Of a stretch of DNA of 64,000 nt, positions 29,031-62,411 are shown piece after piece. The position numbers and the translations under genes were made by a program. Numbering within the stretch: position 1 is the first letter of the stretch; each line of letters begins with the position of its first letter. This stretch comes from Patescibacteria group bacterium. GTDB taxonomy: Bacteria; Patescibacteriota; Saccharimonadia; CAILAD01; BJGX01. Under the pieces are notes generated by a model. The model did not search any database, was not told the origin of the DNA, and was given only the letters and a program-made list of their open reading frames with translations. Location of the stretch: assembly GCA_026397045.1 (NCBI GenBank), contig JAPLVO010000008.1, forward strand, positions 20,850 to 84,849, read 5' to 3'.

Positions 29031-29171
29031 TATTTTCTCCTTTAACTGATGATTAATTTAATATTTCCATTGCGACATCATAAGTGCCATTATTGTCTTA
29101 AATTACGATTAATAAAACTAATTACTTGTGTATGGGTTGTGTTTATATTGTACTACAGTAAGGACTTAAGC

Positions 29172-29654: not shown

Positions 29655-29663
29655 TACAAAATT

Positions 29664-41445: not shown

Positions 41446-42939
41446 CTATTGTATCTGATATAGCCTAGCTTCGCTATATCCAGCCGAAAAAGTACTAACC
41501 AGCTTCCAGCTAGATGGGACCTGATCGTAATAATCATGCTGCCCTGTCTTGCCTATAACCCATACTCTTCCCGACTGGATGTCATTATAAGAGTCTAAGT
41601 AGATGCCCTTATCATATATCAAGCCAGATTCACCATAGCCGTTCGGCCTACCCTGCTTTGTGTATAGAAATATATCTAAGCCAGTTCTGTTGTAATAGCT
41701 ACTATCAAAATAGACATACAATTCTCCGGCGATAAGCTTGTCATCAGGCTTGAAGCTACTCTCAAGGCCACTCATTACGGTGCTCATTTGATGATTAGAC
41801 TGTGAATTAACATTTCTAATTCCAACCAGCTGAGAACTCACCACAATAAATAGTAGTAGTGCTGCTAGGATTTTATTTTTGGCGTTAATCTCAGATATCG
41901 CCAGAGCCAATAGCATGCATAATCCAATGGCCGCAAACACAAAATACCGCTCATGGTAGATTGGCCTAAAGAAAGATATTGAAAGTGCAAATAGTATGGG
42001 GAAAAAGCTAAAGAGTAATATAAGCCTAGAGAAGTGGGCTTTTGTTTTGTCATTTATGGTATGAGCTACTATTACAACAAGCAAAATAACAGGAACTACC
42101 CAGTACAATACTGGCCATAAAGCACGGCCATCGGTAAATGTAGTAAACTGCCATATGGTATCGTTAAGAGTCATGGCTGACGCCCTAGATAACCAGCCAA
42201 GGCCCTGCCCCCTAGTTAGTTGGCTCAGCATATTTGGCACCCATGGCATAAAAAGTATTACTGCCGCAAGATTAGCTAGCCACCATCGCCAATTAGTTAA
42301 TATGGAAATCTTTTTGCTACCTGTTTGCATGAATATAGCCACTACATAAATCCAGAAGCTAATCACTACGAGTGCGGTAAAATAATGCGTATAAAGGCCA
42401 GCCGTGATGCCAGCTACATATATGATATAACCCCTCCAATCTTTTTGATTTTGGGTTATATATATAACACCCAGCATCGCTACAAGCAGAAATACTCCTA
42501 GCACGCCATACATCCTAGCTTCCTGGCTATAGCGAATTAGAAATGGGTTGAGGGCTAAAATAAAGCCTGCCAGCGCAGCTACATTGTGCTTTTTACCTAC
42601 CTTCAACACAATAAAGTAGCCTAACCCTACAACAACCACGCCAAATACAGCACTAAGTGACCGTAAAGCCAGAGCTGAACTGCCAAATAACAAACCCCAA
42701 CCATGCAAGAGCTCGTAATACAGTGGCGGGTGTACATCCCTGGCCGAGCCGAGCCAAACACCGAGCCAATCTTTACTAGAGAGCATAATACTGAATCCTT
42801 CATCGTGCCATATGCTTGATTTAGTAATGCCGAAGGCTCTAGTAACTACAGCTAAAATGATAATTAAGACTAGAACCAATAGCCAATGCCTATTTAGCGT
42901 CTTGGAAAATTTATTAAAACTATTTTTTATACTTACCAC
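41446..42939 (-). CDS. GT-C fold membrane glycosyltransferase (ArnT/PMT_2-like)
   Basis: About 12 TM helices. A DE-containing first periplasmic loop (SIWHDEGFSIM). Confidence 0.5.
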   Translation of the reverse strand: MVSIKNSFNKFSKTLNRHWLLVLVLIIILAVVTRAFGITKSSIWHDEGFSIMLSSKDWLGVWLGSARDVHPPLYYELLHGWGLLFGSSALALRSLSAVFGVVVVGLGYFIVLKVGKKHNVAALAGFILALNPFLIRYSQEARMYGVLGVFLLVAMLGVIYITQNQKDWRGYIIYVAGITAGLYTHYFTALVVISFWIYVVAIFMQTGSKKISILTNWRWWLANLAAVILFMPWVPNMLSQLTRGQGLGWLSRASAMTLNDTIWQFTTFTDGRALWPVLYWVVPVILLVVIVAHTINDKTKAHFSRLILLFSFFPILFALSISFFRPIYHERYFVFAAIGLCMLLALAISEINAKNKILAALLLFIVVSSQLVGIRNVNSQSNHQMSTVMSGLESSFKPDDKLIAGELYVYFDSSYYNRTGLDIFLYTKQGRPNGYGESGLIYDKGIYLDSYNDIQSGRVWVIGKTGQHDYYDQVPSSWKLVSTFSAGYSEARLYQIQ

Positions 42940-43660
42940 GTATCAACTGCCAGCGTATCTTAGCTAAGTCACCGAAGGTTTGTATTGAGGCCTTTATGGG
43001 TGATGTACCGCTAATTTTGCTTCCTTGCTTAATGTCATGCCAATCAGGCACATCGATAATACCAATCGTGTAGCCTTTTTTTCTAGCTATCGCTAGCACC
43101 TCCATATCAAAGCCCCAGCTATCGATCGTCTGTAAGGGGAATATTGATTGTGCCGATTCTTTGGTGAACCCCTTGAAGCCACACTGGGTATCGGCTATAC
43201 CTGGTAGTAGAACCATCTGAACTAACATATTGCCAGCTCCTGAAATTAACTTACGGATACCTTTATGGCTCTTTTGAAGGTCCCTAACGCATATAGCAAG
43301 TTGGCTGCCGGATTGCATTAGGCTAACAGCTTCCTTGATGTATTTGAGGGGTGTCGCTAAATCTGCATCCATAAAAATAATATACTGCCCCTTGGCCTCT
43401 AGCATACCCTTTTTGACTTGCAGGCCTTTAATAAACTTACCTTTAGGCTTCGGGCCAACATCGATGACTTTGATTTTATTAAAAACTTTAGAATGAGCAT
43501 TTACTTCCTTGATGGTGTCATCTGGGCTTCTTGCATCAACCACCAAGACCTCGATATTGAGCTTTTCTTTGCTAGCGTACTTGTGTAGCTGATCTAGTGT
43601 TGGTCCTATCCTGCCCTGCTCATTATAGGTTGGTATTACAATACTTATTAGGTCTTTCAT
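42920..43660 (-). CDS. GT2 polyprenyl-phosphate glycosyltransferase (DPM1/GtrB-like)
   Basis: ISIVIPTYNE, DAD (IIFMDADLATP), QCGFK motifs. Confidence 0.8.
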   Translation of the reverse strand: MKDLISIVIPTYNEQGRIGPTLDQLHKYASKEKLNIEVLVVDARSPDDTIKEVNAHSKVFNKIKVIDVGPKPKGKFIKGLQVKKGMLEAKGQYIIFMDADLATPLKYIKEAVSLMQSGSQLAICVRDLQKSHKGIRKLISGAGNMLVQMVLLPGIADTQCGFKGFTKESAQSIFPLQTIDSWGFDMEVLAIARKKGYTIGIIDVPDWHDIKQGSKISGTSPIKASIQTFGDLAKIRWQLIRGKYKK

Positions 43661-45222
43661 TGATTTATCTCGCAGGCACTAAATAGTAGCTTGCCATTAA
43701 AGTCTGAATAGAAATCCTTGACTGTGGCATTAGGGAATTTTGCCTTAACAATAGCTACCTGTTTATCGTGGTCGGCTCCAGCTGGCACTATTATAAGGAT
43801 ATTTGTAGTATTAGCTATTGGTAGGTCTCTTAGCTGGGCAGTATCCAGTAGACTATACTGAGACTTTTTATGGGTTAGATACTCGATTGTGTTGGCCTCA
43901 TAACCGCCCATAATAACATAATTACTTCGTGCGGGATTATTTGTAGAGATCAAATATTTGGCGATTGCCACTGAGCCCTCATTGTAGGCTTCATAGGTCT
44001 TGGCATCCTGAGCCCACGATACGAAGTATTGCCGATATGCCTGAATCAGGGATAGGGCCATGAGCACACAAACCAAGAATAAGCCTGTGATTCGGGCCAG
44101 CCTATTGATAGGAAAGGTCTGATACCACATATAAAGCAAGTAATTTACTCCCATGCCGGCCATAATTAGAACTGGCACGGCTGTGCCTATGGATCTTAGA
44201 GCGTGAGGCAAACCTTCTGCCGTCAAAAGAGATGGCAATAACATTGATCCAAAAACAACCAGAAGCAATGCATACTTAGGTTTGGCAAAGTTAAATAGGC
44301 ACATGACTAGGCCCAAAATAAACATTATGCCCACGAAAATATTTAGTAGCGGCTGGCCAGAAAAATTATGCCGATTATTACTATCCCCTATGTAATTGTA
44401 TTGCAAAATAGTTTTTGCTGTTCCAGAAAGCAGAGTTTGAATTGGCTGACCATTATTTAAGTTTTTGTTCAAAAAGCTGGTACCACCTGCCCTAGCTGTA
44501 GACCCTCCAGGGTCCTTGATGGTGGTATACAAAAGTGGGCTCATAACTGCCCCAAAAACAGCCATACTAAGAATTAGCTTCTTCCAATTACTCATTAGCC
44601 AGCTTCTTCTAAAGATTAGCATATATATAAAACCTGCGAAGATTGCTGTTAATATCATGGAGAACGCTGTGTATGTATAAAATCCTAAGCCTAGAGATAC
44701 TGCAGCAAGAATATAGTAAATCTTTTTATTAGTCTTATAGGCCTTAGCGCCAAATAGTAATATTAAGGCTATGAATAATGGCACTAGGCTAGCCCTAAAG
44801 CCATCGCGTTGAATTGTCACCACCCACGGATTGATTGCAAAAAAGAAAGCCGTGATCAGCGCTGTTCGGCGATTAAACCACTCTTTAGTGGCAAAGAATA
44901 CCACTATTACGCTAAGAACTCCGAAGAGTGCAGGTGCAACTCTCAGAGCTGTTATTGTATTTCCCATCGCTAGGACAAAAACAGCCTGGAAATAAAAAAA
45001 CAATGCCTCGCGGGGGCCATTAGTATTATAAATAATCCTTAGGTCGCGGTTTTCTAGGATCTTGAATATATCTAGTCCGTTTGCTGCTTCATCTGGATGT
45101 AAACCTGGCGGGAGTGTATTTAGCTGGTAGAATCTAAAAAATATAGCTAATGCGACTATTGCCAGAAGCAAAAACCAGACCATATTTTTCCTTATAAAAA
45201 TGAGTGTTTTGTTATTTTTCAT
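43657..45222 (-). CDS. GT-C fold membrane glycosyltransferase (ArnT/PMT_2-like)
   Basis: LHPDEAANGLD first-loop motif. 13-14 TM helices. 521 aa. Confidence 0.6.
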   Translation of the reverse strand: MKNNKTLIFIRKNMVWFLLLAIVALAIFFRFYQLNTLPPGLHPDEAANGLDIFKILENRDLRIIYNTNGPREALFFYFQAVFVLAMGNTITALRVAPALFGVLSVIVVFFATKEWFNRRTALITAFFFAINPWVVTIQRDGFRASLVPLFIALILLFGAKAYKTNKKIYYILAAVSLGLGFYTYTAFSMILTAIFAGFIYMLIFRRSWLMSNWKKLILSMAVFGAVMSPLLYTTIKDPGGSTARAGGTSFLNKNLNNGQPIQTLLSGTAKTILQYNYIGDSNNRHNFSGQPLLNIFVGIMFILGLVMCLFNFAKPKYALLLVVFGSMLLPSLLTAEGLPHALRSIGTAVPVLIMAGMGVNYLLYMWYQTFPINRLARITGLFLVCVLMALSLIQAYRQYFVSWAQDAKTYEAYNEGSVAIAKYLISTNNPARSNYVIMGGYEANTIEYLTHKKSQYSLLDTAQLRDLPIANTTNILIIVPAGADHDKQVAIVKAKFPNATVKDFYSDFNGKLLFSACEINQ

Positions 45223-50298: not shown

Positions 50299-50483
50299 CC
50301 TCCGATGCTTTAAATTTAATGTGCATGATTACCAAACAAAAAGCCCCCGGTAATAAACCTAGGACCTTAAAGTTTGAAAATCTATTGTTAGATTTGTAAC
50401 CTCATGTAGCGAATTAAGTCATTTAGACTGCTACAGTCTTTGGTAATCGATATTATTATAGCAGCTTAGCGGTGAATATTCAA
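50299..50483 (-). promoter_or_regulatory. rplJ 5' leader (possible L10 autoregulatory leader)
   Basis: 185-nt untranslated spacer upstream of rplJ. Inferred from the conserved L10-leader position only. Confidence 0.25.
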
Positions 50484-51755
50484 CTACAAACTACGCTTAA
50501 ACGCATTATCGTATGGCCATGCAAGGTCATTGGCTAGCTTGGCGGTGTAGGTAGCGAGCTGGTTACTTTGTAGATCGCCTAAAATGGCTTTGCCTATCAG
50601 CATGCCGAGCTCTCTGGACTGGGAAATGCCTATGCCACGACTAGTTAGGGCCGCCATGCCAAGTCTCAGGCCACTGGGCCGCCATGCTGATTTGAGGTCG
50701 CCGGGCACTGAATTACGATTTGTTATTACACCTGAAACTTCAAGTGTTTGCTGAATTGCTAGGCTATCGGAGGCCTTGGGCAGATTAATTAAGCTAAGGT
50801 GGGTTTCGCTCTTGGCTGAGACGGTAATGCCAGACGAGAGTACTCCTTGCTCTAGCGAAGCAGTATTAGCTACGACTGATTTGATGTATTTACTAAAAGG
50901 CACTTTGTCGGTGTACTCGTCCTCGCCGAGTACCTCCATTAAGGCCTGGCCAACGGCAGCTATCTGATTGAGATGCGGCCCACCGCTGGTTCCAGGAAAA
51001 ACAGTCTTATTGATCGCTGGCATGTACTGCTTTTTAGCAAAAAGTAACGCTGAGCGCGGTCCACGCAGTGTCTTGTGCGTGGTTGTTGTCACGAAGTCCG
51101 CCCCACTGCCATCAGGATTAAATGGGCTGCTGTGCTCACCGGTGGCGACTAATCCTGAAATGTGAGCAATATCTGCCAATACAAGGCAGCCATTACCATG
51201 AGCCAGGCTGCATATTTCTGTAAACTCATACTTTTGTGGATAGGCCGAAAACCCAACGACCAATAACCTTGGCTTATACTTAATAATTTTGCGCTTAAGC
51301 TCGGCTAGATCCAAAACAAAGCCCTGGGGGCTAGGCGTGAGGTAGTATGATTGGTGGTTGAAGAACTTTAGATAGCTGCTAGACGAGTGAAGATGGCTGA
51401 GGTGGCCACCGCTGGCTAAGTCCAGGCTAAGTACTGTATCGCCAGGCTCAAGAACAGTTAAAAATACCATGGCATTTGCTGGGCTACCAGACAGTACTTG
51501 GACATTTACGCCATACTCACCAGTTGAATCAAACACCTCAAGAGACTTTTGCTGTACAAACTCTTCTAGCTCATCGGCGAGTATGTTGCCTCCATAATAT
51601 CGCTTTCCTGGGTAGCCTTCGGCGTATTTATCATTCCATATTGAACCTAGCAAATCTAAAACTTTAGGACTTGGGTAGTTTTCTGAGGCTATTAAATTGA
51701 TAGTGGCTTGCTGACGAGAGTTTTCTTGCTCAGTTAGCTTGTATATTTTATTCAT
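50484..51755 (-). CDS. glyA: serine hydroxymethyltransferase
   Basis: PLP-lysine signature TTTTHKTLRGPRSAL. Confidence 0.9.
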   Translation of the reverse strand: MNKIYKLTEQENSRQQATINLIASENYPSPKVLDLLGSIWNDKYAEGYPGKRYYGGNILADELEEFVQQKSLEVFDSTGEYGVNVQVLSGSPANAMVFLTVLEPGDTVLSLDLASGGHLSHLHSSSSYLKFFNHQSYYLTPSPQGFVLDLAELKRKIIKYKPRLLVVGFSAYPQKYEFTEICSLAHGNGCLVLADIAHISGLVATGEHSSPFNPDGSGADFVTTTTHKTLRGPRSALLFAKKQYMPAINKTVFPGTSGGPHLNQIAAVGQALMEVLGEDEYTDKVPFSKYIKSVVANTASLEQGVLSSGITVSAKSETHLSLINLPKASDSLAIQQTLEVSGVITNRNSVPGDLKSAWRPSGLRLGMAALTSRGIGISQSRELGMLIGKAILGDLQSNQLATYTAKLANDLAWPYDNAFKRSL

Positions 51756-51929: not shown

Positions 51930-52898
51930 CTATTTCTGCCTGGCCTCACGCAAGGCCTCGTTGTGGTCGAGCCTGATGCTAGGGCTCATGCTAGAAGTTA
52001 TATATATATTTCGGATAAACACTCCTTTGACTCCACTCGGCTTAGCCGATGAAAGAGCCTTAACTACCGATCTGGCATTGGAATATAGATCCTCAGGCTT
52101 GAAGCTAAGTTTCCCAATCGCGACATGTATAACCCCATTGGCATCATTCTTGATTTCCACCTTACCCTTCTTAAACTCATCGACTGCCTTGGCTGGATCG
52201 GCCGTTACAGTACCATTTTTAGGTGAAGGCATTAAGCCTTTTGGGCCAAGTATTTTCGCAAGTTTGCCTAGCTCACTCATTTTGTCTGGGCTGGCAATTA
52301 ATATATCAAAATTAAACTTTTCCTTTGCTATTTCTTTTAATATAAGTTCACCATCTACAAAATCAGCTCCTGCCTTCTTAGCTGCCTCAGATTCATTCTC
52401 GCCAGATATCACGGCAACTACCAAAGTTTTGCCAGTACCTGCAGGTAATGAGATATTAGTTCTTACCATCTGATCAGCCTGCCTAGGATCAATATTTAGC
52501 GTTGCATGCAATTCAGCAGTTGCGTCAAATTTTACCTTAGAAATCTTGGGCAGCAAAGCCATGGCCTCTGCAAGCGTGTAGAGCTTATCCTTTTCGAGCA
52601 TATCTCGCGCAGACTTCTGGTTCTTTGTGTACTTTTTAACTCTAGGCTTTTGTTTGGTTTTCGGTACTTCGATGGATTTTTTAGAATCTATCTTTTTAGC
52701 CTCTTTGGCTTCTTTATCACTGGCCTCGGTTTGGGCCTTAATGCTTCTCTTACCGGATTTAGCAACCTTTACGGGTTTTTCTAATTCACTAGCTGAAGAC
52801 TCACCTAACTCTGCTACTTCTTTAGGCTCTAAGTCTTTCTTTATAACTTTTTTGATTGATTTTTTACTATCTTCCATATCATCTCCTTCGGTGGTCAA
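51930..52898 (-). CDS. rplA: 50S ribosomal protein L1 with ~85-aa Lys/Glu-rich N-terminal extension
   Basis: Canonical L1 begins near KKYTKNQKSARDMLEKDKLYTLAEA. No in-frame ATG/GTG/TTG start near that point, so the extension appears to be translated. Confidence 0.8.
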   Translation of the reverse strand: MTTEGDDMEDSKKSIKKVIKKDLEPKEVAELGESSASELEKPVKVAKSGKRSIKAQTEASDKEAKEAKKIDSKKSIEVPKTKQKPRVKKYTKNQKSARDMLEKDKLYTLAEAMALLPKISKVKFDATAELHATLNIDPRQADQMVRTNISLPAGTGKTLVVAVISGENESEAAKKAGADFVDGELILKEIAKEKFNFDILIASPDKMSELGKLAKILGPKGLMPSPKNGTVTADPAKAVDEFKKGKVEIKNDANGVIHVAIGKLSFKPEDLYSNARSVVKALSSAKPSGVKGVFIRNIYITSSMSPSIRLDHNEALREARQK

Positions 52899-54191: not shown

Positions 54192-55460
54192 TTATGGCCT
54201 TGGCAGCTTGATATCAATAGAGCTAGGCAGGCTGTTAGATAGCTGTGTTAGATATGAGGCTAATTCCGCCGATACCGCTGAACTCGCTATGAAATAAGTA
54301 ATCACTATAACTGCTGCAATCATCACGACAATTAGCAGACTGAGATATCCAGGGTTACGATTGTTGTGCATTACTAAGCCAGCTCTCATGCCATGAACAC
54401 GAACAACTCTTGCCCAGTACCCCACTTGCCAGGCAGTCCATACCGACCATAGGATATACAAAAAAGTCGAGAATGAGGATAATACAAGTATCTGAAGGCT
54501 CACGGCGGTTGTAGTATCTATTAGATAAACATTTATAGCTACCAGGCCAAGGCTAAGGCCGAAAAACAGCATCAAATGCAGCATCCATACGAACCCATAT
54601 TTAATACTGGCTAGAGGGTGGCTGAGGGTATACTTGAAGGCGGGGCTTAATTTAGCCGTTCCAGTTTCGGTGCCTATTGCAACGCTAGCCATCAACCAAA
54701 ACCTTAAGGTCGAATACGCTGCAATCATCATAATCAGCACCAATAATGCGCATAGGCACAGAAAAGCTTGCTGATATATAGAGCCATAGCCGAGCACATA
54801 TATAGCCAGTATGGTTAAAGCCGCAAACCCTAAAATAAGCATAAATACCATTACTTTTACAATCTTCTGTAGAAAGCTACCTAATATCTGGCTAGCTGAT
54901 TGTTTTAATGAATTAGAAAGCTTGGGCTCACGATTATCTAGCTGCTGATACCTGAACCTTAACAGTGCAGGAGTTATTAGGCTATCGGCAATAATACTAA
55001 CTAGAGCAATTATAAGTATGGTGCCTCCTAATACTATGAGCATGGATGTATTTTGGGCCGATACACCAGCCTTTAGCTCTATAAGCAGCTCATCGAGTTT
55101 TAAGACTGATAAATAGCGCAACTGAAATATCAAGATTGGCAAAATTACGAAAAATAAAACTCGAGCCCCTAATAAGTTTCTGGCTAATGACAGCTGGAAT
55201 ATGTCTGCAATCAAAACGGACTTCCAGGCCGAACTAACCATAGTGATAACTCCTGATTGAGCTGGCCTGGGAGCTGGGGCTTGAGTTGGAGTTGGCCTGG
55301 GAGCTGGAGCTCGAGTCGGAGTTGGCCTGGGAGGTGGAGCTGGAGCTCGAGTCGGAGTTGGCCTGGGAGCTGGGGCTGGCCTGGCAGCTGAAACCTTCGG
55401 ACTTTTTACAGTCGACATGCGTGAGACCCTTTTAATATCAATGTTTTTTGGTGTAGCCAT
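54192..55460 (-). CDS. polytopic membrane protein with N-terminal Pro/Thr/Ala-rich tandem repeats
   Basis: (RPTPTRAPAP)n N-terminus then about 8 TM helices. No family recognised. Confidence 0.4.
   Translation of the reverse strand: MATPKNIDIKRVSRMSTVKSPKVSAARPAPAPRPTPTRAPAPPPRPTPTRAPAPRPTPTQAPAPRPAQSGVITMVSSAWKSVLIADIFQLSLARNLLGARVLFFVILPILIFQLRYLSVLKLDELLIELKAGVSAQNTSMLIVLGGTILIIALVSIIADSLITPALLRFRYQQLDNREPKLSNSLKQSASQILGSFLQKIVKVMVFMLILGFAALTILAIYVLGYGSIYQQAFLCLCALLVLIMMIAAYSTLRFWLMASVAIGTETGTAKLSPAFKYTLSHPLASIKYGFVWMLHLMLFFGLSLGLVAINVYLIDTTTAVSLQILVLSSFSTFLYILWSVWTAWQVGYWARVVRVHGMRAGLVMHNNRNPGYLSLLIVVMIAAVIVITYFIASSAVSAELASYLTQLSNSLPSSIDIKLPRP
55258..55390 (-). repeat. ~33-bp tandem DNA repeat (~4 copies) encoding the P/T/A-rich repeats
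   Basis: TGGCCTGGGAGCTGGRGCTYGAGTYGGAGT units. One copy carries a 6-nt insertion. Confidence 0.6.
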
Positions 55461-55494: not shown

Positions 55495-56334
55495 CTATAG
55501 CGCAAAACTTCTTTTGATCTTTATGAACAATAAAATTCTAATTTTTACGAATAAAGGAAGGCTGGCTCTAGATTTTGAAAGCTCACTGGCAGGCCTACTA
55601 TTTATCAATTTAGTTAACTCGCTGAAGTACGAATAAGCAAGCTCCACACCATATCGGCTAGACTTAGGTAGGGACTTTATAGCTCCACTGGCTATTTTTA
55701 GATCCTTATTTATATCTTCTGTGATGTCAGTGATATCTTGCTGGGTTAGGTTCTTTGAAGATTTGCCAGGAAAATATAATCGGCCAAGATTACCAGAATC
55801 ATCGGAGATATCTCTTAGGAAATTTATCTTTTGGAATGCAGAGCCCAGTGCTCTGGCAGATGGCTTTAACTCCCTAAACTTTTTCTTATCACCGGCCACA
55901 AATACCATTAAGCACATTAGGCCCACAGCTTCAGCTGAGCCATATATATAATCACTGTACTCTTCTAGAGAATACCGCTTCTTTTTAATATCCATGCGCA
56001 TGCTATCCATGAATGAGTCGATCAAATCCATGGGTATACCGTACTCACGAACAACCAAGCAAAAACTATGGACAATTGGGTTAATGCTAAAACCCGTCTT
56101 TAAGGCTCTTTTGGTGTCAGCTGTTAGCTCATCGAGATATTCAGCCATTTCCTTAGGCCGCCATGTATCCACGACCTCGTCTGCTATTCTAACAAACCCG
56201 TAAATAGACACTATTGAGTCTGCCACTTTGGGGCTAAGGAGCTTAGTTGCAGATGAGAATGAGCTTGAATAAGAGAAGGTGATGTCTCGACTTAAGCGAA
56301 TGCTTATTTGGTTATATAGGCCAATATTAATCAC
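55495..56334 (-). CDS. crtB: phytoene/squalene synthase family (CrtB/CrtM-like)
   Basis: Asp-rich YGFVRIADEVVD and signature-2 LGSAFQKINFLRDISDDSGNLGRLYFP. Confidence 0.7.
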   Translation of the reverse strand: MINIGLYNQISIRLSRDITFSYSSSFSSATKLLSPKVADSIVSIYGFVRIADEVVDTWRPKEMAEYLDELTADTKRALKTGFSINPIVHSFCLVVREYGIPMDLIDSFMDSMRMDIKKKRYSLEEYSDYIYGSAEAVGLMCLMVFVAGDKKKFRELKPSARALGSAFQKINFLRDISDDSGNLGRLYFPGKSSKNLTQQDITDITEDINKDLKIASGAIKSLPKSSRYGVELAYSYFSELTKLINSRPASELSKSRASLPLFVKIRILLFIKIKRSFAL

Positions 56335-56339
56335 TGCTA

Positions 56340-57410
56340 CTACTTTTTCCTAGCCACACAGTATGAGGCGAGATTTCTTAAAAGATCTTCGAGCTCAGTA
56401 TCTAGGTTCATCCTATCCAATATTAATAAGGACTTTTTAAGATGATCATCTGCCGCAACAGTGACCTTAGCCCGTGCACCACATTCCTCGAGAATAACTC
56501 GGACTATCTTGGTGTCATGAATATTTATATCCGTCTTGCCCAGCCTAGTCTCAATGGCCTTCCATTGCAGTGGAGATGATAGCTTTTTAGCATAATACAT
56601 CAGTAGCGTTTGTTTACCTTCGCGAATATCTGAGCCGACTGGCTTACCTGTTTGTCGACTTGAGCCAAACATGCCAAGGAGGTCGTCTGCGAGCTGGAAA
56701 GCTTTGCCTAATTCAGAGCCAAACTCAGCAAAGAGCTTAAAAAGCTTACTATTTCCCCCGGCGGCGACAATGCCTAGTTGCATGGGATATGTAATAGTAT
56801 ATTGAGCAGTTTTATAAAAATTCACCTTTTCTATTTTACTTAGATTCAAATCTCCTCTAAGACCCGCCATGACATCTAATTGCTGCCCTGCTCCGGTATC
56901 GAAAAGTGTTTTTTGGAAATGCTTCATCATTTCGAACACCAGCTTGGGGTCGAGGTCGAGGCTGGTTAGCACTTCAAATGTAAAGAACTCATTTAGCTCC
57001 CCTGCTAAAATAGCGATGGACTCGGCAGTTTTCCTAGCAGGTTTATCATCTAGCAGCTTCTTGAACCTTTTTTCATATACTCCCGTAATATTTGCGCCGC
57101 CGTAGCGTGTGGTATCGCCGTCCATAATATCATCATGGATAAGTACGAAGTTATGAAAAATTTCTAACGATACAGATGCATCCAGGGCCTTAGCTATTTC
57201 TTTGCCGCCGGCAGCCCTATAGCCTAGTACCATTAAGGTTGGCCTGAGTCTCTTGCCGCCTCTGAGAATGAACTTCTTCATATCCAGCAGCAGCTTGGCA
57301 TAGACTGGATCAATCTTACTAGCCTCGGCTATTTTAAGATCATAGAAATCAGATAATCTACCATCTACCTCTGATTTAACAAACTTGTTTAATGCAATAA
57401 ATTTTTCCAT
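56340..57410 (-). CDS. polyprenyl diphosphate synthase (GGPP/FPP synthase, CrtE/IdsA-like)
   Basis: FARM LIHDDIMDGD and SARM FQLADDLLG. Confidence 0.8.
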   Translation of the reverse strand: MEKFIALNKFVKSEVDGRLSDFYDLKIAEASKIDPVYAKLLLDMKKFILRGGKRLRPTLMVLGYRAAGGKEIAKALDASVSLEIFHNFVLIHDDIMDGDTTRYGGANITGVYEKRFKKLLDDKPARKTAESIAILAGELNEFFTFEVLTSLDLDPKLVFEMMKHFQKTLFDTGAGQQLDVMAGLRGDLNLSKIEKVNFYKTAQYTITYPMQLGIVAAGGNSKLFKLFAEFGSELGKAFQLADDLLGMFGSSRQTGKPVGSDIREGKQTLLMYYAKKLSSPLQWKAIETRLGKTDINIHDTKIVRVILEECGARAKVTVAADDHLKKSLLILDRMNLDTELEDLLRNLASYCVARKK

Positions 57411-57411
57411 A

Positions 57412-58911
57412 CTACGCCTTAGTATCCTTCAAAATCCTTTCCATGACTAGCTTAGCACTAAGGGTCACCATCGGTATGCCGCCTCCAGGATAGGTGCTCG
57501 CACCGACAAAATAAAGGTTCTTTATATCCTTACTTTTATTGTGTGGCCTAAAATAGCCAGACTGCAAAAAGTGATGGCTCAGACCAAAAGCAGATCCGAT
57601 GTGCAAATTATATTTGTCTCTGAAATCTTCTGGCGTAAAAATAGATTCCACTTTTATTTTTTTCTCAATATCCAAATCAAACTCCGTCTTTAGCCTTGAT
57701 AGTACCTGCTTTCTAAGGCGTTTTATGCCAGACTGCCATTGCACCTTTGAATCAAGATTCGGAACCGGCACCAGTACATAGAATACACTCTTTCCTTTTG
57801 GTGCCAAGCTTGGGTCAGTCTTGGTAGGAATATAAGTATAAAACGAAGGATCCTTAGGAAGTTTTTTCTGATGGAATATTTCATCAAGATTATTTTTAAA
57901 GTCTTTACAGAGATATACATTATGATGAAGCATGCCCTCGCAGCTATCATCTACACCCCAATAGAATAGTAAGGCTGAGCTTGCCTGCTTATATGATTCG
58001 AGTTTTGTATTAGGAGTCGAAGGTCGATCTTTTTCATCAATCAATTTCATCTGAGAATATACTAAATCAGCATTGGCTACAATTGTATCCGCATAAAGTT
58101 TTTTGTTCTTATTTGTCCTAATACCGACTGCGGTTTTGTTTTCTATAATTATTTCTTCTACCGGTGTCGAGGTAATTATTTTACCCCCTAAATCTTTGAC
58201 CAGCTTTTCAATAGCCAAAGATAGTGAGTACATGCCACCCTTTGGATACCAAATACCCAATCCTGTTTCCATATAGCTCACCACGCTATAAACCGCTGGT
58301 GCCTCGTGCGGACTAACACCCAAATACATACTTTGAAAACTAAATAATTGCCTAAGGCGCTCATCTTTGAAATAACGCGAGACAAATTTATAGAGCTTAG
58401 ATAAGCCTCTCTTTTTGAATAATTGGGCACCACTTACGGGGCTGATGAAGTCGGTAATATTGCTAAAGTTTTTATCTATAAAGTTAGCCCTAGCGATTCT
58501 ATATATCTCCGATACATCGCCGAAAAATTTATAAAACTGCTCTGGGCCTTTAGGGTCAAACTTGGACAGCTCGCTTGCAAATTTTGGTAAATTACTACTT
58601 ACAGTAATTCTACTTTTATCGGCGAATGCAACTTGATAGTTTGGCTCTAGCTGTAACAACTCGATATAGTCATCGAAATTTTTACCACAGTAGCTGAAGG
58701 TCTCATAGAGGGTATCGGTCATCATGAGAAGGGTCGGCCCCATGTCAAAAGTGTAGCCACTTTTCTCAATACGGTGTGCTCGGCCGCCAATTTTATCTTC
58801 CTTTTCGACAATAGTGACTTCGTAGCCATTTTTAAGCAAACGAGCAGCCGCACACATCCCGCCTATGCCGCCGCCAACTATAATTACACTTTTGAGTTTA
58901 TTATTTTTCAT
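57412..58911 (-). CDS. crtI: phytoene desaturase family (CrtI/CrtN)
   Basis: N-terminal FAD fold VIIVGGGIGGMCAAARL...EKEDKIGGRA. About 500 aa amine-oxidase fold. Confidence 0.8.
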   Translation of the reverse strand: MKNNKLKSVIIVGGGIGGMCAAARLLKNGYEVTIVEKEDKIGGRAHRIEKSGYTFDMGPTLLMMTDTLYETFSYCGKNFDDYIELLQLEPNYQVAFADKSRITVSSNLPKFASELSKFDPKGPEQFYKFFGDVSEIYRIARANFIDKNFSNITDFISPVSGAQLFKKRGLSKLYKFVSRYFKDERLRQLFSFQSMYLGVSPHEAPAVYSVVSYMETGLGIWYPKGGMYSLSLAIEKLVKDLGGKIITSTPVEEIIIENKTAVGIRTNKNKKLYADTIVANADLVYSQMKLIDEKDRPSTPNTKLESYKQASSALLFYWGVDDSCEGMLHHNVYLCKDFKNNLDEIFHQKKLPKDPSFYTYIPTKTDPSLAPKGKSVFYVLVPVPNLDSKVQWQSGIKRLRKQVLSRLKTEFDLDIEKKIKVESIFTPEDFRDKYNLHIGSAFGLSHHFLQSGYFRPHNKSKDIKNLYFVGASTYPGGGIPMVTLSAKLVMERILKDTKA

Positions 58912-58941: not shown

Positions 58942-59256
58942 GTGAATAATGCATATTTAGCCATACTTTTATTTAGCATAGCGGGGATGGGTATAATTGA
59001 CGCCCGCTATAAGTTAGTATTTTTTTTAGATTATAAATCGGCCGCCAAGAGCATCGCCATAGTGATGACGCTGCTTTTAGTTATTGATGTGATAGGAATA
59101 AATTTAGATATATTCAGCACTAATCCAGATTATGTGACTGGCATTTTTATTGGCAGCGAAAACCTGCCGCTGGAGGAATTCTTTTTTTTATTTCTTCTTT
59201 GCTATTTCACGCTATCTATCAATCGGATAATATCGTCGAGACTTAAAAATGTTTAA
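58942..59256 (+). CDS. lycopene-cyclase-domain small membrane subunit (CrtYe/LbtA-like)
   Basis: About 100 aa, 3 TM helices, conserved PLEEFFF (PxEE) motif. Confidence 0.5.
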   Translation: MNNAYLAILLFSIAGMGIIDARYKLVFFLDYKSAAKSIAIVMTLLLVIDVIGINLDIFSTNPDYVTGIFIGSENLPLEEFFFLFLLCYFTLSINRIISSRLKNV

Positions 59257-59557
59257 ATATAGTGGCTTGATTATATTATGTTTAGCGCTGTCGACTGGTA
59301 TTATATTTATTTACAAATTAAAAGTAACGCTTAGCAAAGCACTACTATACACCGGGCTTGTAAGTTTTGTTGCTATGCTGTTTTTTAACACCATACTCAC
59401 GAGCCTGCCTATAGTGGTGTATAATACGGCTTCAACTCTAAATATTAGAGTCCTAACATTCCCTATTGAGGACATAGGATATTTATTGGCGGTCTTAATG
59501 ATTCTGCCAGCTTTGTTTGAAAAGTTTATTAACGAAAGTAGTTCTAATAAAAAATAA
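59249..59557 (+). CDS. lycopene-cyclase-domain small membrane subunit (CrtYf/LbtB-like)
   Basis: About 100 aa, 3 TM helices, FPIEDIGY (PxED) motif. Overlaps the previous gene by 8 nt. Confidence 0.5.
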   Translation: MFKYSGLIILCLALSTGIIFIYKLKVTLSKALLYTGLVSFVAMLFFNTILTSLPIVVYNTASTLNIRVLTFPIEDIGYLLAVLMILPALFEKFINESSSNKK

Positions 59558-61550
59558 TCATCAGCTTTCTATTCGAGAAGTTTTAGCCAGTTCTAGGCCA
59601 TTTAGCTGGGTTAACACTGTCGGTCCTTTCTTTGTAGGCTATACGATTGCCAATGGCTCGATCAATCTCCCCTGCGTGGTAGGTGCGGTTTACTTTTGCT
59701 TCTTCTACAATTTTTTATTATATGGAGTGAATGATATATTTGATTATGAATCAGATATAAAAAATCCTCGAAAAAATTCTATAGAGGGTGGCCTGGTCGA
59801 CAAGAGCAAACATAATCTGATGTTCGCTCTTATAATAGCTACGAATATACCTATTTTAATATACCTAATGGCCACTGGCAGCATACTTAGTGGCTCAATA
59901 CTGGCCCTAATCATATTTTTTGCATTTAGCTATTCCGCTAAGCCATTCAGATTTAAAGAGGTGCCAATTCTAGATTCGATAAATTCTAGCTTGCACTTTG
60001 TGATGCCTTTAGTTTTTGGCTTGGTTTATGCAGGTGCCACCAGCCTTCCTTGGCCAGCGATAATATCTTTCTTTTTGTGGGGAGCTGCCTCGCAGGCCCT
60101 AGGAGCTATCCAGGACATTAAGCCCGATAGGGCAGGCGGTATAGAGTCGATCGCAACCAAGCTGGGGTCAAAGTTTACAAATAGGTATAGCATTATTCTT
60201 TATACCGTGAGCTGTATCATACCCGTCATATTCTATTTCCCATGGGGAATAGCTGTAGGAATTATACTTTCCCTTTACCCATTAAATGTTCTGTTCTTTA
60301 GCAGATTCAAATCAGATGCTAAGAGTGGTGAATACAATAGGGCCTGGAAAAACTTTCTATGGTTAAACCTGCTGTGTGGTTTCTGGCTAAGTCAACTGTT
60401 ACTGTTCGTCTTTGACCCATTAGGGCTGGGGCTAAGCAGGATAGCTTTGCTGGGAGTCTTTATTATTATTATTGGCTTGGCTCAACTATCCCTTACTCTG
60501 TACAATTACAAGAAATTCACTCGTCCCAAGACTAAACGCCTCAATGATCTGCCGCATATAGATATACTACTCCACTCCACCGGCAACAAGGATAATATCG
60601 CCTCCACGCTCCTTGCTCTGATAGGCCAAAACTACCCTCACTTTGATATTTACTACGCCAACCTAGATAATGACCCGCGCTCCAGGAAGATCGCTGAAGG
60701 CTACCAGGATAAAAGGCTACAAATCGTTGACGCTGGCAGAACTCCAGCCGGCTGGAGTCAGGCGGCCTGGGCTAGCAATGTATTATTTAAAAAATCTAAA
60801 TCGGATATAAATGTATTAATAAGCCCAGATACTATTCTGCTACCCAACACCCTTTCGGTAATTGCCAGCATGTTCGACTCTAGCGATCTAGATCTAGTAT
60901 CATTATTGCCGGCTGATCAAAATGAATCATTATGGCAGCAACTTTTAATGAGCCAGGAACACTATTTGCTATTAGGACTCTACCCTTCTGCATACATCAC
61001 CAAAAACCACCCAAAACTAGCCACGGCTTATAGTAATTTAATTGCTTTTAAGAAGTCTCCGCTTAAAAAAGTTGGTGGGTTTGAATTAACCAAAAACAGC
61101 CCCCTTGAGGACCTCGATATAGCCAATAAAGCCAACCAAATCGGGCTAAACACTAAATTCTATTGTGCTAGCGACTTGGCAGTTAGCCAGAATAGATCTG
61201 GGCTAGTGAGTTTAGCTGCCTACAACCAACAAAAACTGTATCCTAGCCTACACTTCAATATGCCCCTTACTGTTGCTCTTATTTCGGGTGGTATTTTCAT
61301 TATTTCATTCCCAATATTCTTATTAAGCGCCTTGATGCTAGCAGGGATATATGATGGCACAATACTTTTGGCGATAGGTTGTGCTCTACTGCTATTCAAT
61401 AGGCTAGTAGTAATGGTCAAATCCAAGCAGAGCATTTCTGGTGCTCTGCTTTACCCATTAGGCTGTCTTGCGATTTTGCTGCAACTTTTCACATCGATGC
61501 TCTATTATGAGCTAAGAAAGCACAGCTGGAAAAGCCGCTACGAACTATAG
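59517..61550 (+). CDS. fusion: UbiA-family prenyltransferase (lycopene-elongase-like) + C-terminal GT2 glycosyltransferase
   Basis: N-terminal SRPFSW and NDIFDYESD (NDxxDxxxD) UbiA motifs with 7-8 TM helices. C-terminal GT2 region (DxD-like LDND, then 2-3 terminal TM helices). Confidence 0.55.
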   Translation: MKSLLTKVVLIKNNHQLSIREVLASSRPFSWVNTVGPFFVGYTIANGSINLPCVVGAVYFCFFYNFLLYGVNDIFDYESDIKNPRKNSIEGGLVDKSKHNLMFALIIATNIPILIYLMATGSILSGSILALIIFFAFSYSAKPFRFKEVPILDSINSSLHFVMPLVFGLVYAGATSLPWPAIISFFLWGAASQALGAIQDIKPDRAGGIESIATKLGSKFTNRYSIILYTVSCIIPVIFYFPWGIAVGIILSLYPLNVLFFSRFKSDAKSGEYNRAWKNFLWLNLLCGFWLSQLLLFVFDPLGLGLSRIALLGVFIIIIGLAQLSLTLYNYKKFTRPKTKRLNDLPHIDILLHSTGNKDNIASTLLALIGQNYPHFDIYYANLDNDPRSRKIAEGYQDKRLQIVDAGRTPAGWSQAAWASNVLFKKSKSDINVLISPDTILLPNTLSVIASMFDSSDLDLVSLLPADQNESLWQQLLMSQEHYLLLGLYPSAYITKNHPKLATAYSNLIAFKKSPLKKVGGFELTKNSPLEDLDIANKANQIGLNTKFYCASDLAVSQNRSGLVSLAAYNQQKLYPSLHFNMPLTVALISGGIFIISFPIFLLSALMLAGIYDGTILLAIGCALLLFNRLVVMVKSKQSISGALLYPLGCLAILLQLFTSMLYYELRKHSWKSRYEL

Positions 61551-61571: not shown

Positions 61572-62411
61572 CTAAAGCGCTCTATCGCTTGCCCTAAACA
61601 CTACTTTGGCTATAATTATAGCCAATACGGATGCTAGCCCGACTGCTATAAATACTGGCAAAGTCTGAGATAGCAAAAATACTATTACCCTACCCAGAGC
61701 TAAAGGGTCCATTAGTCGGGAAGGGTCCGAAGAGATTAATAGATTATTCGCACTTAATAAATTAGCCGAAAAAGCCATTACCAGCCCGATGATAGAGCCA
61801 AATGCAAGTGAATAAGCAGGGCTAGTTATTTTTCTACTGCCCTTGCGAATATTAACTATTACCAGCGATAGTATCGAAATAGAAATAGTCACCCACAAAA
61901 AAGGTATAGCTTGGCTCGCCGTAGTATAGATTAGTTTGGCATACTGCAATCTATCTAATAGTGTCTTGTCCTCGCTATCTGGTGCGATCAGCGAAATGCT
62001 GTCTGGAATAATTTTGGTAATCTCGAATTTAGCTCTTGGGTCGTCTATGCCAGAAAGTGCCTTTGACCTCAGCTGCACTAGATCTAATTGCAAAGCTATA
62101 GGGCCATTAGGCGAATTAAGCCACTCCAATATAGATATCTGGCTTGGCTGCAAAGTAGACTTTACAACTTCTGGGGTTACTGCTTGGCCGATTCCGTTCT
62201 TTGCAAGACCCACAATTGCCTCATTGCCGCTTAATTGGCTAATGAGCAAGGAGCTCAAGCTCTTGGCGGCAGTGTTATAAAATCCTGAGCCGGCCAATAC
62301 TTGTGTTAGCCTTTGGTTGGAGGAAAATGTCCCCACTAGAGACATGGCAAAGACTAAAAGTAAAAAGCTCAGGCAGACCACTGCCTGTAATATTCTATTG
62401 ATTAGTGACAA
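61572..62411 (-). CDS. hypothetical membrane protein
   Basis: N-terminal and C-terminal TM helices. No family recognised. Confidence 0.4.
   Translation of the reverse strand: MSLINRILQAVVCLSFLLLVFAMSLVGTFSSNQRLTQVLAGSGFYNTAAKSLSSLLISQLSGNEAIVGLAKNGIGQAVTPEVVKSTLQPSQISILEWLNSPNGPIALQLDLVQLRSKALSGIDDPRAKFEITKIIPDSISLIAPDSEDKTLLDRLQYAKLIYTTASQAIPFLWVTISISILSLVIVNIRKGSRKITSPAYSLAFGSIIGLVMAFSANLLSANNLLISSDPSRLMDPLALGRVIVFLLSQTLPVFIAVGLASVLAIIIAKVVFRASDRAL

What the first reader, a model, noticed from the sequence alone, without database searches (positions are those of the whole stretch)
59517..61550. Single-polypeptide fusion of a lycopene-elongase-like UbiA prenyltransferase with a GT2 glycosyltransferase
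In characterised C50 or glycosylated carotenoid clusters the elongase (CrtEb/LbtC/LyeJ) and the glycosyltransferase (CrtX, or the GT2 CrtQ in the staphyloxanthin pathway) are separate proteins. Here one 677-aa ORF has the NDxxDxxxD UbiA core followed by a GT2 catalytic region with terminal TM helices. This implies coupled prenyl elongation and glycosylation of the carotenoid end group. It could be a natural bifunctional enzyme of biotechnological interest.
Basis: partly seen in the sequence, partly recalled or inferred. Interest (0 to 1): 0.6.

Follow-up and report, generated by a model that had tools for sequence, protein, structure and literature searches.

The report
Carotenoid elongase fused to a glycosyltransferase
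A real, widely conserved gene in a Saccharibacteria pigment cluster joins a C50-carotenoid chain-extending enzyme to a sugar-transferase-like enzyme in one membrane protein; no paper in the library I could search describes this arrangement, and the sugar-transferase half is unusually altered here.

Summary
Window 59517-61550 (+) is one uninterrupted 677-aa ORF. It has a UbiA prenyltransferase half (aa 16-300), a linker transmembrane helix, a GT-A/GT2 domain and three C-terminal helices.

It is not a frameshift artefact. The same 677-aa protein occurs in independent NCBI, ENA, Logan and JGI assemblies. In all, 172 fused-length homologues were found in Saccharibacteria, Chloroflexota and Dormibacterota, and every intact one whose surroundings I read sits among crtI, crtB and two lycopene-cyclase-domain genes.

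The N-terminal half is a CrtEb-type lycopene elongase (NCBIfam NF009608, above cutoff). The C-terminal half is homologous end to end to stand-alone CruC/CruG/HpnB-like GT2 enzymes. In the window's clade, however, only 12 of 40 signature residues survive: the metal-binding Asp and the ED motif are kept, but DDGS, the first Asp of DxD and GK are lost.

Where relatives lost the crt genes, the UbiA catalytic residues decayed while the GT2 half stayed conserved.

Best reading: a bifunctional elongase/glycosyltransferase that makes a glycosylated C50 carotenoid. The sugar-transfer step is inferred and uncertain in this clade. I rate it a new variant of a known kind, of moderate interest.

The parts
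59517..61550 (+). Fused gene, 677 aa: CrtEb-type UbiA prenyltransferase + linker TM helix + GT2 (GT-A) domain + C-terminal TM helices
   Evidence: the same architecture in 172 homologues
59562..60416 (+). UbiA / lycopene-elongase half (aa 16-300), nine helices H28-H299
   Evidence: NF009608 303.7 bits against cutoff 217, aa 16-297; AF2 helices; AfUbiA 4tq4 TM-score 0.69 normalised to the target
59730..59756 (+). First Asp-rich motif NDIFDYESD (N72, D73, D76, D80)
   Evidence: intact in 161 of 172 fused homologues
60114..60128 (+). Second Asp-rich motif DIKPD (D200, D204)
   Evidence: conservation
60435..60515 (+). Linker TM helix (aa 307-333). It corresponds to the N-terminal TM helix of stand-alone GT2 relatives and returns the chain to the cytoplasmic side
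   Evidence: AF2 H307-333; alignment with stand-alone GT2s; sequence
60558..61235 (+). GT-A catalytic-type domain (aa 348-573)
   Evidence: alternating strands and helices in the AF2 model; Foldseek hits to PcManGT, BcsA and hyaluronan synthase; profile hits to PDB GT2s
60822..60830 (+). Remnant of the DxD motif, SPD. D438 is invariant; the first Asp is replaced by Ser
61098..61124 (+). SPLEDLDIA: the ED motif (E531, D532), putative catalytic-base region, retained
61260..61514 (+). Three C-terminal helices (aa 582-666), followed by the family's W..R end motif (W671, R674)
59249..59557 (+). Lycopene-cyclase-domain subunit B (CrtYf-like). It overlaps the fused gene by 41 nt
   Evidence: PF18916 E 6.4e-12; TIGR03462
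58942..59256 (+). Lycopene-cyclase-domain subunit A (CrtYe-like)
   Evidence: TIGR03462 57.3 bits against cutoff 39.4; 39-44% identical to Glutamicibacter CrtYe-position genes
57412..58911 (-). Phytoene desaturase CrtI, divergent from the cyclase/elongase operon
   Evidence: TIGR02734 512 bits against cutoff 238
56340..57410 (-). Polyprenyl diphosphate synthase (CrtE/IdsA-like, presumed GGPP synthase)
   Evidence: PF00348 E 2.7e-49
55495..56334 (-). Phytoene synthase CrtB
   Evidence: PF00494 E 1.1e-37

Best explanation
The gene encodes a 13-helix membrane protein that joins two enzymes of one pathway, in a six-gene C50-carotenoid cluster of a Saccharibacteria (Patescibacteria) chromosome.

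Shown: the N-terminal half is a CrtEb-type UbiA prenyltransferase with both Asp-rich motifs intact. The C-terminal half is a complete HpnB/CruG/CruC-like membrane GT2, running from its own N-terminal TM helix to its C-terminal W..R motif, and it is attached end to end. From the helix count, with the two Asp-rich loops taken as cytoplasmic as in solved UbiA structures, the UbiA fold ends outside the cell and the GT2's own first TM helix brings the GT-A domain back to the cytoplasmic face. Both active sites would then lie on the same side of the membrane.

Inferred: CrtE, CrtB and CrtI make lycopene. The UbiA half adds C5 units at C-2/C-2' to give a hydroxylated acyclic C50 carotenoid (flavuxanthin type). 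The CrtYe/Yf-like pair cyclises the ends. The GT2 half transfers a sugar to the new hydroxyl groups, giving a C50 carotenoid glycoside that is made and decorated at one membrane site.

In the window's clade the donor site of the GT2 half is heavily remodelled, so the donor, and even the sugar-transfer activity itself, is the least secure step.
For: Architecture and fold.

CrtEb type: NF009608 scores 303.7 bits (cutoff 217). The CrtEb-position protein of Glutamicibacter arilaitensis (a homologous cluster of strain Re117 is annotated CrtEb in PMC2991359) scores 419.7 bits on the same model and is 44-49% identical to the window's UbiA half.

Pathway link: intact fused genes lie next to cycA-cycB and crtI (and crtB wherever the contig reaches far enough) in Saccharibacteria, Chloroflexota and Dormibacterota. 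Triple fusions cyclase-UbiA-GT2 exist.

Natural knock-outs: every relative with decayed UbiA catalytic residues whose locus was read (7 of 7) has lost crtI, crtB and both cyclase genes. This ties UbiA catalysis to the carotenoid genes.

GT2 kinship: some of the nearest stand-alone relatives of a canonical fused GT2 half carry the JGI label 'chlorobactene glucosyltransferase'. All 16 scanned match the HpnB and CruG models, below those models' cutoffs for the one member whose scores are shown.

Selection: dN/dS is 0.07 for the UbiA half and 0.04 for the GT2 half against a 98.6%-identical relative. D438, E531/D532, R629, Q638 and W671 are kept.
Against: No biochemistry exists for any member of the family. 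The window keeps only 12 of 40 residues that are invariant in stand-alone relatives. It has lost PxRxE, DDxSxD, GK, the first Asp of DxD, the His of GGH and RMY, whereas the Chloroflexota/Dormibacterota fusions keep 29 of 40. The single-sequence Pfam GT2 score is marginal, and the HpnB and CruG scores are far below their cutoffs. The GT2 half remains conserved in genomes whose locus has lost the crt genes, which suggests a role that does not need the neighbouring elongase. The dN/dS estimate rests on few substitutions (GT2 half: 7 synonymous, 1 non-synonymous). No sugar-nucleotide genes lie in the cluster. Precursor supply (IPP/DMAPP) in this reduced genome was not examined.
Confidence: 0.6

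Rival explanations
1. The UbiA half is a working lycopene elongase, but in Saccharibacteria the GT2-like half no longer glycosylates the elongase product. It has changed donor, acceptor or reaction, for example acting on another membrane lipid or on carotenoids taken from the host, or it serves as a non-catalytic membrane or substrate-binding module.
For: 28 of 40 family-invariant residues are replaced in the window, including most nucleotide-sugar-site signatures. This derived GT2 type is found only fused, never alone, in an exhaustive search of 1.84 billion representatives. It stays conserved where the crt genes and the UbiA catalytic residues are lost. In 11 of 12 such proteins the GT2 half is more conserved than the UbiA half, against 3% of 5847 intact pairs.
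Against: The metal-binding Asp (D438), the ED motif, GW, R629, Q638 and the W..R end are retained. Homology to the stand-alone GT2 group that includes CruC-labelled proteins runs end to end. The gene stays in the carotenoid operon in all intact members. Many active GT-A enzymes carry variant DxD motifs (my own knowledge, not tested here).
Confidence: 0.25
2. The cluster makes an acyclic bacterioruberin-type C50 carotenoid, with the UbiA half acting as a LyeJ-like elongase/hydratase, as proposed for Lake Baikal Patescibacteria (PMC9948471).
For: PMC9948471 reports lyeJ, crtD and cruF in Patescibacteria Baikal-deep-G192. Locus L006 comes from that MAG and carries a 69%-identical fused gene. A PF04240 (CruF-like) gene lies 6 kb from a related fused gene in L087.
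Against: Two lycopene-cyclase-domain genes sit immediately upstream and are even fused to the elongase in relatives. The UbiA half passes the threshold of NF009608, the model that a Glutamicibacter CrtEb-position protein also passes, and fails NF009516 and NF010119. No PF04240 gene was found among the 56 window ORFs scanned. There is only one CrtI-family desaturase in the cluster.
Confidence: 0.07
3. The GT2 half is a polyprenyl-phosphate or cell-envelope glycosyltransferase (DPMS/GtrB-like) that merely happens to be fused to the prenyltransferase.
For: Foldseek's best PDB match is the DPMS-like PcManGT. The GT2 half persists without the crt genes.
Against: By sequence the closest relatives are HpnB/CruG/CruC-like GT2s, not GtrB/DPMS. 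The window already has a separate canonical GT2 flanked by PMT_2 genes at 41446-45222. The carotenoid-cluster context is conserved across three phyla.
Confidence: 0.05
4. Assembly or sequencing artefact: two adjacent genes joined by a frameshift error.
For: None found.
Against: Identical-length proteins occur in many independent assemblies. There are 172 fused-length homologues down to 28% identity. There is no intergenic remnant: UbiA helix 9 runs straight into the GT2's own first TM helix. The single-chain model is confident (pTM 0.88).
Confidence: 0.01

Closest known systems
CrtEb lycopene elongase of Corynebacterium glutamicum (cg0717) and its orthologues in Glutamicibacter/Arthrobacter arilaitensis and Micrococcus luteus
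   Same: UbiA fold with NDxxDxxxD and DxxxD motifs. It passes the same NCBIfam model (NF009608). It is 44-49% identical to the Glutamicibacter proteins. It lies directly downstream of two small cyclase-domain genes in a cluster with crtI, crtB and crtE.
   Different: It carries a 377-aa GT2 module at its C-terminus. The gene order is divergent (crtB-crtE-crtI on the opposite strand). The host is a Patescibacterium, not an actinobacterium.
LbtBC of Dietzia sp. CQ4 (C50 cyclase subunit fused to lycopene elongase)
   Same: A precedent for gene fusion inside C50 pathways (PMC6669644). Relatives of the window protein (P0108, P0110, P0114, P0117, P0119) have the same cyclase-elongase junction plus the GT2.
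   Different: In the window the cyclase subunit is a separate gene that overlaps the fused gene by 41 nt. The fusion partner here is a glycosyltransferase at the other end of the protein.
Stand-alone membrane GT2s of the HpnB / CruG (2'-O-glycosyltransferase) / CruC (chlorobactene glucosyltransferase) group
   Same: Homologous end to end (HHalign E 2.4e-41): N-terminal TM helix, GT-A domain, C-terminal helices and W..R end motif. The Chloroflexota/Dormibacterota fusions keep 29 of 40 invariant residues.
   Different: The window keeps 12 of 40 and scores far below the curated cutoffs (HpnB 68 against 379; CruG 32 against 600). This derived form is known only in the fused context.
CrtX, the separate C50 carotenoid glycosyltransferase of C. 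glutamicum (cg0730) and M. luteus
   Same: The proposed role is the same: glycosylation of the hydroxyls of a cyclic C50 carotenoid (PMC5401885; PMC10998873).
   Different: CrtX is a separate gene several genes away from crtEb.
LyeJ, the bifunctional lycopene elongase/hydratase of haloarchaea
   Same: UbiA-family C50 elongase. 'lyeJ' is the label applied to this gene family in Lake Baikal Patescibacteria (PMC9948471).
   Different: The window protein fits the model matched by CrtEb-position proteins, sits beside cyclase genes and not beside cruF/crtD, and is fused to a GT2.

Membership tests
UbiA prenyltransferase superfamily | Pfam PF01040 above the gathering score | tested here: met
   95.1 bits against 34.2, aa 35-282
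UbiA prenyltransferase superfamily | Two Asp-rich motifs (NDxxDxxxD and DxxxD) | tested here: met
   NDIFDYESD and DIKPD; conserved in 161 of 172 fused homologues
UbiA prenyltransferase superfamily | Nine-helix UbiA fold | tested here: met
   AF2 model pLDDT 90.9 with nine helices at aa 28-299; Foldseek hit to AfUbiA 4tq4, target-normalised TM-score 0.69
CrtEb-type lycopene elongase (NCBIfam NF009608) | Score above the curated cutoff of the model that CrtEb-position proteins match | tested here: met
   303.7 bits against 217; the G. arilaitensis CrtEb-position protein scores 419.7 (annotation of the homologous Re117 cluster in PMC2991359)
CrtEb-type lycopene elongase (NCBIfam NF009608) | Encoded next to CrtYe/Yf-type cyclase subunits and crtI/crtB/crtE | tested here: met
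   conserved in relatives
CrtEb-type lycopene elongase (NCBIfam NF009608) | Prenylates lycopene with C5 units to give C45/C50 products | not testable with these tools
   Needs heterologous expression or an enzyme assay
Alternative prenyltransferase models NF009516 (PRK12875) and NF010119 (PRK13595), possibly LyeJ-like (my assumption, not verified) | Score above the curated cutoff | tested here: not met
   148.4 against 205 and 144 against 248
Glycosyltransferase family 2 (GT-A fold) | Profile and fold match to GT2 | tested here: met
   PF00535 24.0 against 23.3, marginal; profile against PDB 1.9e-22; Foldseek hits to GT2 enzymes; HHalign probability 100%
Glycosyltransferase family 2 (GT-A fold) | DxD metal/diphosphate-binding motif | tested here: inconclusive
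   The window has S436-P437-D438. The second Asp is invariant in the whole family. The first Asp is lost throughout Saccharibacteria and kept in Chloroflexota/Dormibacterota
Glycosyltransferase family 2 (GT-A fold) | First nucleotide-binding Asp (DDxSxD block) | tested here: not met
   The window has ANLDND (N382, L383). The block is DDGS in canonical relatives
Glycosyltransferase family 2 (GT-A fold) | Acidic catalytic-base region (ED) | tested here: met
   E531-D532 in SPLEDLDIA
Carotenoid/hopanoid-type membrane GT2s (HpnB TIGR03469, CruG NF045692, CruC-labelled proteins) | Score above the curated cutoff of a named model | tested here: not met
   HpnB 68.3 against 379; CruG 32 against 600. 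The canonical fused relative P0091 also stays below cutoff, at 142 and 116.5
Carotenoid/hopanoid-type membrane GT2s (HpnB TIGR03469, CruG NF045692, CruC-labelled proteins) | End-to-end homology, including the N-terminal TM helix and the C-terminal W..GR motif | tested here: met
   but only 12 of 40 invariant residues are kept
Carotenoid/hopanoid-type membrane GT2s (HpnB TIGR03469, CruG NF045692, CruC-labelled proteins) | Transfers a sugar from an NDP-sugar to a carotenoid hydroxyl | not testable with these tools
   Needs product analysis

The most novel reading that the evidence does not exclude
In Saccharibacteria the GT2-like half has become a new kind of module. It is remodelled at most donor-site positions, it is never found unfused, and it is kept under constraint even after the carotenoid genes and the elongase active site are lost. 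It may therefore act on something other than the cell's own elongase product, for example carotenoids or other lipids acquired from the actinobacterial hosts of these epibionts, or it may use a non-canonical donor.
Probability: 0.2. Interest if true: 0.7.

Novelty: new variant of a known kind. Interest (0 to 1): 0.45.

Why it matters
The fusion works as a Rosetta-stone link. It is conserved in three phyla and ties an uncharacterised branch of HpnB/CruG/CruC-like GT2 enzymes to C50 carotenoid elongation, so it offers candidate single-gene parts for making glycosylated C50 pigments.

It also sharpens an earlier claim about C50 carotenoid biosynthesis in Patescibacteria, organisms with very small genomes and little biosynthetic capacity. 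That earlier report (PMC9948471) read the genes as a bacterioruberin pathway. The cyclase genes and the GT2 fusion point instead to a cyclic, probably glycosylated product.

The series of relatives with a dead elongase site but a conserved GT2 half gives a direct, testable handle on what the GT2 half does on its own.

Tried and rejected
- **Frameshift or assembly artefact:** rejected.
- **Single-sequence phmmer of the GT2 half against PDB:** no hit at E <= 1. A profile was needed.
- **Foldseek against afdb50:** the library was not available.
- **A 'split' ancestor, with a GT2 gene next to an unfused crtEb:** none found. tblastn found no GT2 in the flanks of any unfused locus. In the two loci examined by Pfam, a NUDIX gene follows crtEb in Glutamicibacter and a histidine kinase follows it in an unfused Saccharibacteria locus.
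- **Single origin of the fusion:** the NJ tree of UbiA halves is unresolved. The fused/unfused split has 41% bootstrap support and the fused Saccharibacteria clade 75%. Shared linker residues (N330, R336) and end-to-end collinearity of the GT2 halves favour a single origin but do not prove it.
- **Kyte-Doolittle TM prediction:** too noisy. Helices were taken from the AF2 model instead.
- **CruF (PF04240) or rhodopsin in the window:** none among the 56 ORFs scanned.
- **Promoter and terminator scan of the locus:** consensus-level matches only, not informative.
- **Literature:** six full-text searches found no paper describing a CrtEb-GT2 fusion. The library lacks most subscription journals, so absence is not proof.
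Full report
**Observation.** Window 59517-61550 (+) is a single 677-aa ORF with a TTG start and no internal stop. No other ATG, GTG or TTG lies in frame before the conserved SRPFSW block, and the ORF overlaps the upstream gene by 41 nt. Pfam places UbiA at aa 35-282 (E 5.4e-27) and Glycos_transf_2 at aa 358-518. The GT2 score is only 24.0 bits against a gathering score of 23.3. NCBIfam puts aa 16-297 in NF009608 at 303.7 bits (cutoff 217). The best models for the C-terminal half are HpnB, HpnI and CruG, all far below their cutoffs.

**Not an artefact.** The 90%-identity cluster of this protein has 28 members. Of the 15 members listed, 11 are exactly 677 aa, from independent NCBI (MCX6804620.1, named only 'prenyltransferase'), ENA, Logan and JGI assemblies. 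A homologue search returned more than 120 clusters with the same UbiA+GT2 architecture, down to 28% identity. With the second search, 172 proteins of fused length were collected. In 83 fetched loci, ORF length measured from the UbiA start is bimodal: 297-331 aa (unfused) or 660-725 aa (fused). Against a 98.6%-identical relative, dN/dS is 0.069 for the UbiA half and 0.042 for the GT2 half. The counts are small, 16S/4N and 7S/1N.

**Anatomy.**
- An AlphaFold2 model built on 95 homologues is confident (pLDDT 90.9, pTM 0.88). It shows nine helices at aa 28-299, a long helix at aa 307-333, an alternating strand/helix domain at aa 348-573, and three helices at aa 582-666.
- Foldseek matches the C-terminal part to membrane GT2 enzymes (PcManGT 6yv7, BcsA, hyaluronan synthases). 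It matches the N-terminal part to the archaeal UbiA homologue 4tq4, with a target-normalised TM-score of 0.69.
- Both Asp-rich UbiA motifs are present: NDIFDYESD and DIKPD.
- By the helix count, and taking the two Asp-rich loops as cytoplasmic as in solved UbiA structures, helix 9 ends outside the cell. Helix 307-333 then returns the chain so that the GT-A domain is cytoplasmic, on the same side as the UbiA active site. This topology is my inference from the model and from established UbiA topology.
- Aligned with stand-alone GT2 relatives, the linker helix is simply the N-terminal TM helix of the GT2, and the family's C-terminal W..(G)R motif is at the very end. Two complete proteins are therefore joined end to end.

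**Context.** The gene is the last of cycA (58942-59256), cycB (59249-59557) and the fusion on the + strand. This operon is divergent from crtI (57412-58911), a polyprenyl diphosphate synthase (56340-57410) and crtB (55495-56334) on the - strand. The cluster sits in the chromosome core beside nusG-rplK-rplA. The best-matching genomes are Saccharibacteria/Patescibacteria MAGs.

The same six-gene layout, next to nusG, recurs in the fused Saccharibacteria loci whose contigs reach far enough upstream. In Chloroflexota and Dormibacterota the order is cycA-cycB-fusion-crtI-crtB, and in L003 the cluster lies beside a MarR-family regulator gene. Some soil relatives fuse the second cyclase subunit as well, giving PF18916+PF01040+PF00535 proteins of about 740 aa.

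Unfused CrtEb genes of about 300 aa occur in Glutamicibacter, Arthrobacter and Microbacteriaceae, and also in a second set of Saccharibacteria with a different, mostly colinear actinobacterial-type gene order. tblastn found no GT2 gene in the flanks of any of these, and Pfam confirmed this in the two loci examined.

**Identity of the N-terminal half.** It is 44-49% identical to Glutamicibacter proteins that occupy the crtEb position. In G. (Arthrobacter) arilaitensis strain Re117 this cluster was annotated crtE-crtB-crtI-crtYe-crtYf-crtEb, with 44-54% identity to the C. glutamicum decaprenoxanthin genes (PMC2991359). The corresponding protein of another G. arilaitensis strain scores 419.7 bits on NF009608, so NF009608 is the model that CrtEb-position proteins match. 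The window protein fails the two sister models.

**Identity of the C-terminal half.** A profile of GT2 halves hits solved GT2 enzymes at 1.9e-22, with D438 aligned to the second Asp of DxD. When a canonical fused GT2 half from Chloroflexia was used as query, the nearest stand-alone proteins were 30-38% identical and 360-390 aa long. They include several that JGI labels 'chlorobactene glucosyltransferase', plus proteins from Methylobacterium, Blastococcus and Modestobacter. All 16 that were scanned match the HpnB and CruG models.

HHalign of Saccharibacteria GT2 halves against these stand-alone proteins gives probability 100% and E 2.4e-41 over 355 of 377 columns, but only 20% identity.

Of 40 columns invariant in eight stand-alone proteins, the Chloroflexota/Dormibacterota fusions keep 29 and the window keeps 12.
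- Lost: P-x-R-x-E, DDxSxD, GK, the first Asp of DxD (the window has SPD), the His of GGH, and RMY.
- Kept: W413, A419, D438, G520-G521, G543, W671 and R674 among others, plus the ED motif.

An exhaustive search of 1.84 billion representatives found this derived GT2 type only in the C-terminal part of longer proteins or in short fragments; eight of the ten hits at E <= 1e-30 are 494-683 aa. Scores then drop sharply to ordinary stand-alone GT2s at 20-27% identity.

**A natural experiment.** Of the 172 fused-length proteins, 161 keep N72, D73, D76, D80, D200 and D204. The other 12 do not: six are from Saccharibacteria and six are of the Chloroflexota type. Eleven of the 12 keep W413, D438, R629 and Q638, and nearly all keep the acidic 531/532 pair and W671.

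For all seven whose loci I read (L007, L085-L090), crtI, crtB and both cyclase genes are gone from an otherwise syntenic locus. One of them keeps only the polyprenyl synthase.

Relative to the nearest intact protein, the UbiA half is less conserved than the GT2 half in 11 of the 12. In 5847 intact pairs, by contrast, the UbiA half is on average 11 points more conserved, and only 3% of pairs show the reverse.

This supports two conclusions. First, the catalytic residues of the UbiA half are maintained only together with the carotenoid genes, which is independent support for an elongase role. Second, the GT2 half is maintained without them, so it has some value of its own.

**Mechanism.** The best-supported reading is a bifunctional membrane enzyme in a pathway to a cyclic, glycosylated C50 carotenoid:
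1. CrtE, CrtB and CrtI make lycopene.
2. The UbiA half adds C5 units and so creates hydroxylated ends.
3. The CrtYe/Yf-like pair cyclises the ends.
4. The GT2 half adds sugar.

All four steps are inferred from homology and gene context. Step 4 is the weakest for this clade because of the remodelled donor site and because the GT2 half persists without the crt genes. The main rival is that the GT2-like half has changed function in Saccharibacteria.

**Comparison with the literature.** In characterised C50 systems, crtEb and the glycosyltransferase crtX are separate genes (PMC5401885). The only fusion I found reported in these pathways is cyclase-elongase (LbtBC of Dietzia; PMC6669644). A Lake Baikal study reported 'lyeJ, crtD, cruF' in Patescibacteria, including MAG Baikal-deep-G192, and proposed bacterioruberin (PMC9948471). 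Locus L006 from that MAG carries a 69%-identical fused gene, with the cyclase genes beside it. The cyclic CrtEb-type reading fits better. Six full-text searches found no description of the fusion.

**Verdict.** The architecture and the pathway assignment are supported. The coupled-glycosylation claim is plausible but unproven. This is a new variant of known kinds: two known enzyme families in an undescribed, conserved fusion, with a strongly derived GT2 half in Saccharibacteria. Interest is moderate, 0.45.

Noticed in passing
Related loci L007, L085, L086, L087, L088 (Saccharibacteria); L089, L090 (Chloroflexia); proteins P0021, P0022, P0026, P0057, P0085, P0087, P0161, P0163, P0166, P0177, P0178, P0184: Twelve fused proteins have lost the UbiA catalytic residues but keep the GT2 hallmark residues. 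All seven loci that were read have lost crtI, crtB and the cyclase genes at the syntenic site. The UbiA half has relaxed while the GT2 half has not.
   Followed up: yes
L035:6004-9594 (uncultured Chloroflexia MAG): One 1196-aa ORF spans UbiA, GT2 and CrtI in a single frame. In the sister locus L001 the fused gene and crtI overlap by 4 nt, so this may be a real triple fusion or a one-base assembly error.
   Followed up: partly
P0108, P0110, P0114, P0117, P0119; L002:1409-3637: Soil-metagenome relatives of about 740 aa fuse a lycopene-cyclase domain, UbiA and GT2 in one protein. The first junction parallels LbtBC of Dietzia.
   Followed up: partly
Loci L046, L047, L052, L054, L055, L057, L061, L064-L067, L069, L072-L077, L082, L083: A second set of Saccharibacteria C50 clusters has an unfused crtEb of about 300 aa. 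Most show the colinear actinobacterial gene order (crtE-crtB-crtI-cycA-cycB-crtEb), a few have crtI divergent, and CrtI is only 31-35% identical to the window's. The phylum therefore holds two distinct cluster types.
   Followed up: partly
P0186 (568 aa): A stand-alone-type GT2 of this family is fused to a NUDIX domain (10 member sequences). Type 1 IPP isomerases are NUDIX proteins, so this may be another isoprenoid-pathway fusion.
   Followed up: no
window 54192-55460 (-) and 61572-62411 (-): Two polytopic membrane proteins with no Pfam match flank the cluster. The first has a Pro-rich repeat N-terminus. tblastn homologues of both flank the fused gene in the close relatives L004-L007, and unannotated genes of similar size sit in the same positions in loci that lost the crt genes (L085, L087, L088), though homology there was not tested.
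   Followed up: partly
window 51930-52898 (-): The ribosomal protein L1 ORF is 322 aa, and the L1 domain starts only at residue 118. Called L1 genes in related Saccharibacteria are also 317-361 aa, so an N-terminal extension of about 100 aa seems real.
   Followed up: no
window 50328-51755 (-): A serine hydroxymethyltransferase gene lies between rplA and the L10 leader/rplJ-rplL. Relatives carry further nucleotide-metabolism genes (thyX, thymidylate kinase, dCTP deaminase) in this region.
   Followed up: no
window 41446-45222 (-): A separate, canonical 246-aa GT2 (PF00535, 77.5 bits) sits between two PMT_2 family membrane glycosyltransferases. This looks like a polyprenyl-phosphate-sugar system unrelated to the carotenoid cluster.
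   Followed up: no
window 12472-15144 (+): An 890-aa protein has TrwB/TraG-type type IV coupling-protein domains. It lies next to a protein with sigma-70 region 4 and HARE-HTH domains (11403-12419).
   Followed up: no
window 28500-30137 (-) and 35917-36696 (+): Two AhpC/TSA peroxiredoxin genes and a YaaA peroxide-stress gene lie in the same 64 kb as the carotenoid cluster. This may reflect an oxidative-stress theme.
   Followed up: no
L087:12252-13127: A PF04240 (Caroten_synth, CruF-like) gene lies 6 kb from a fused gene with a dead UbiA site, in a locus that lacks crtI and crtB. It may be the 'cruF' reported for Patescibacteria in PMC9948471.
   Followed up: no
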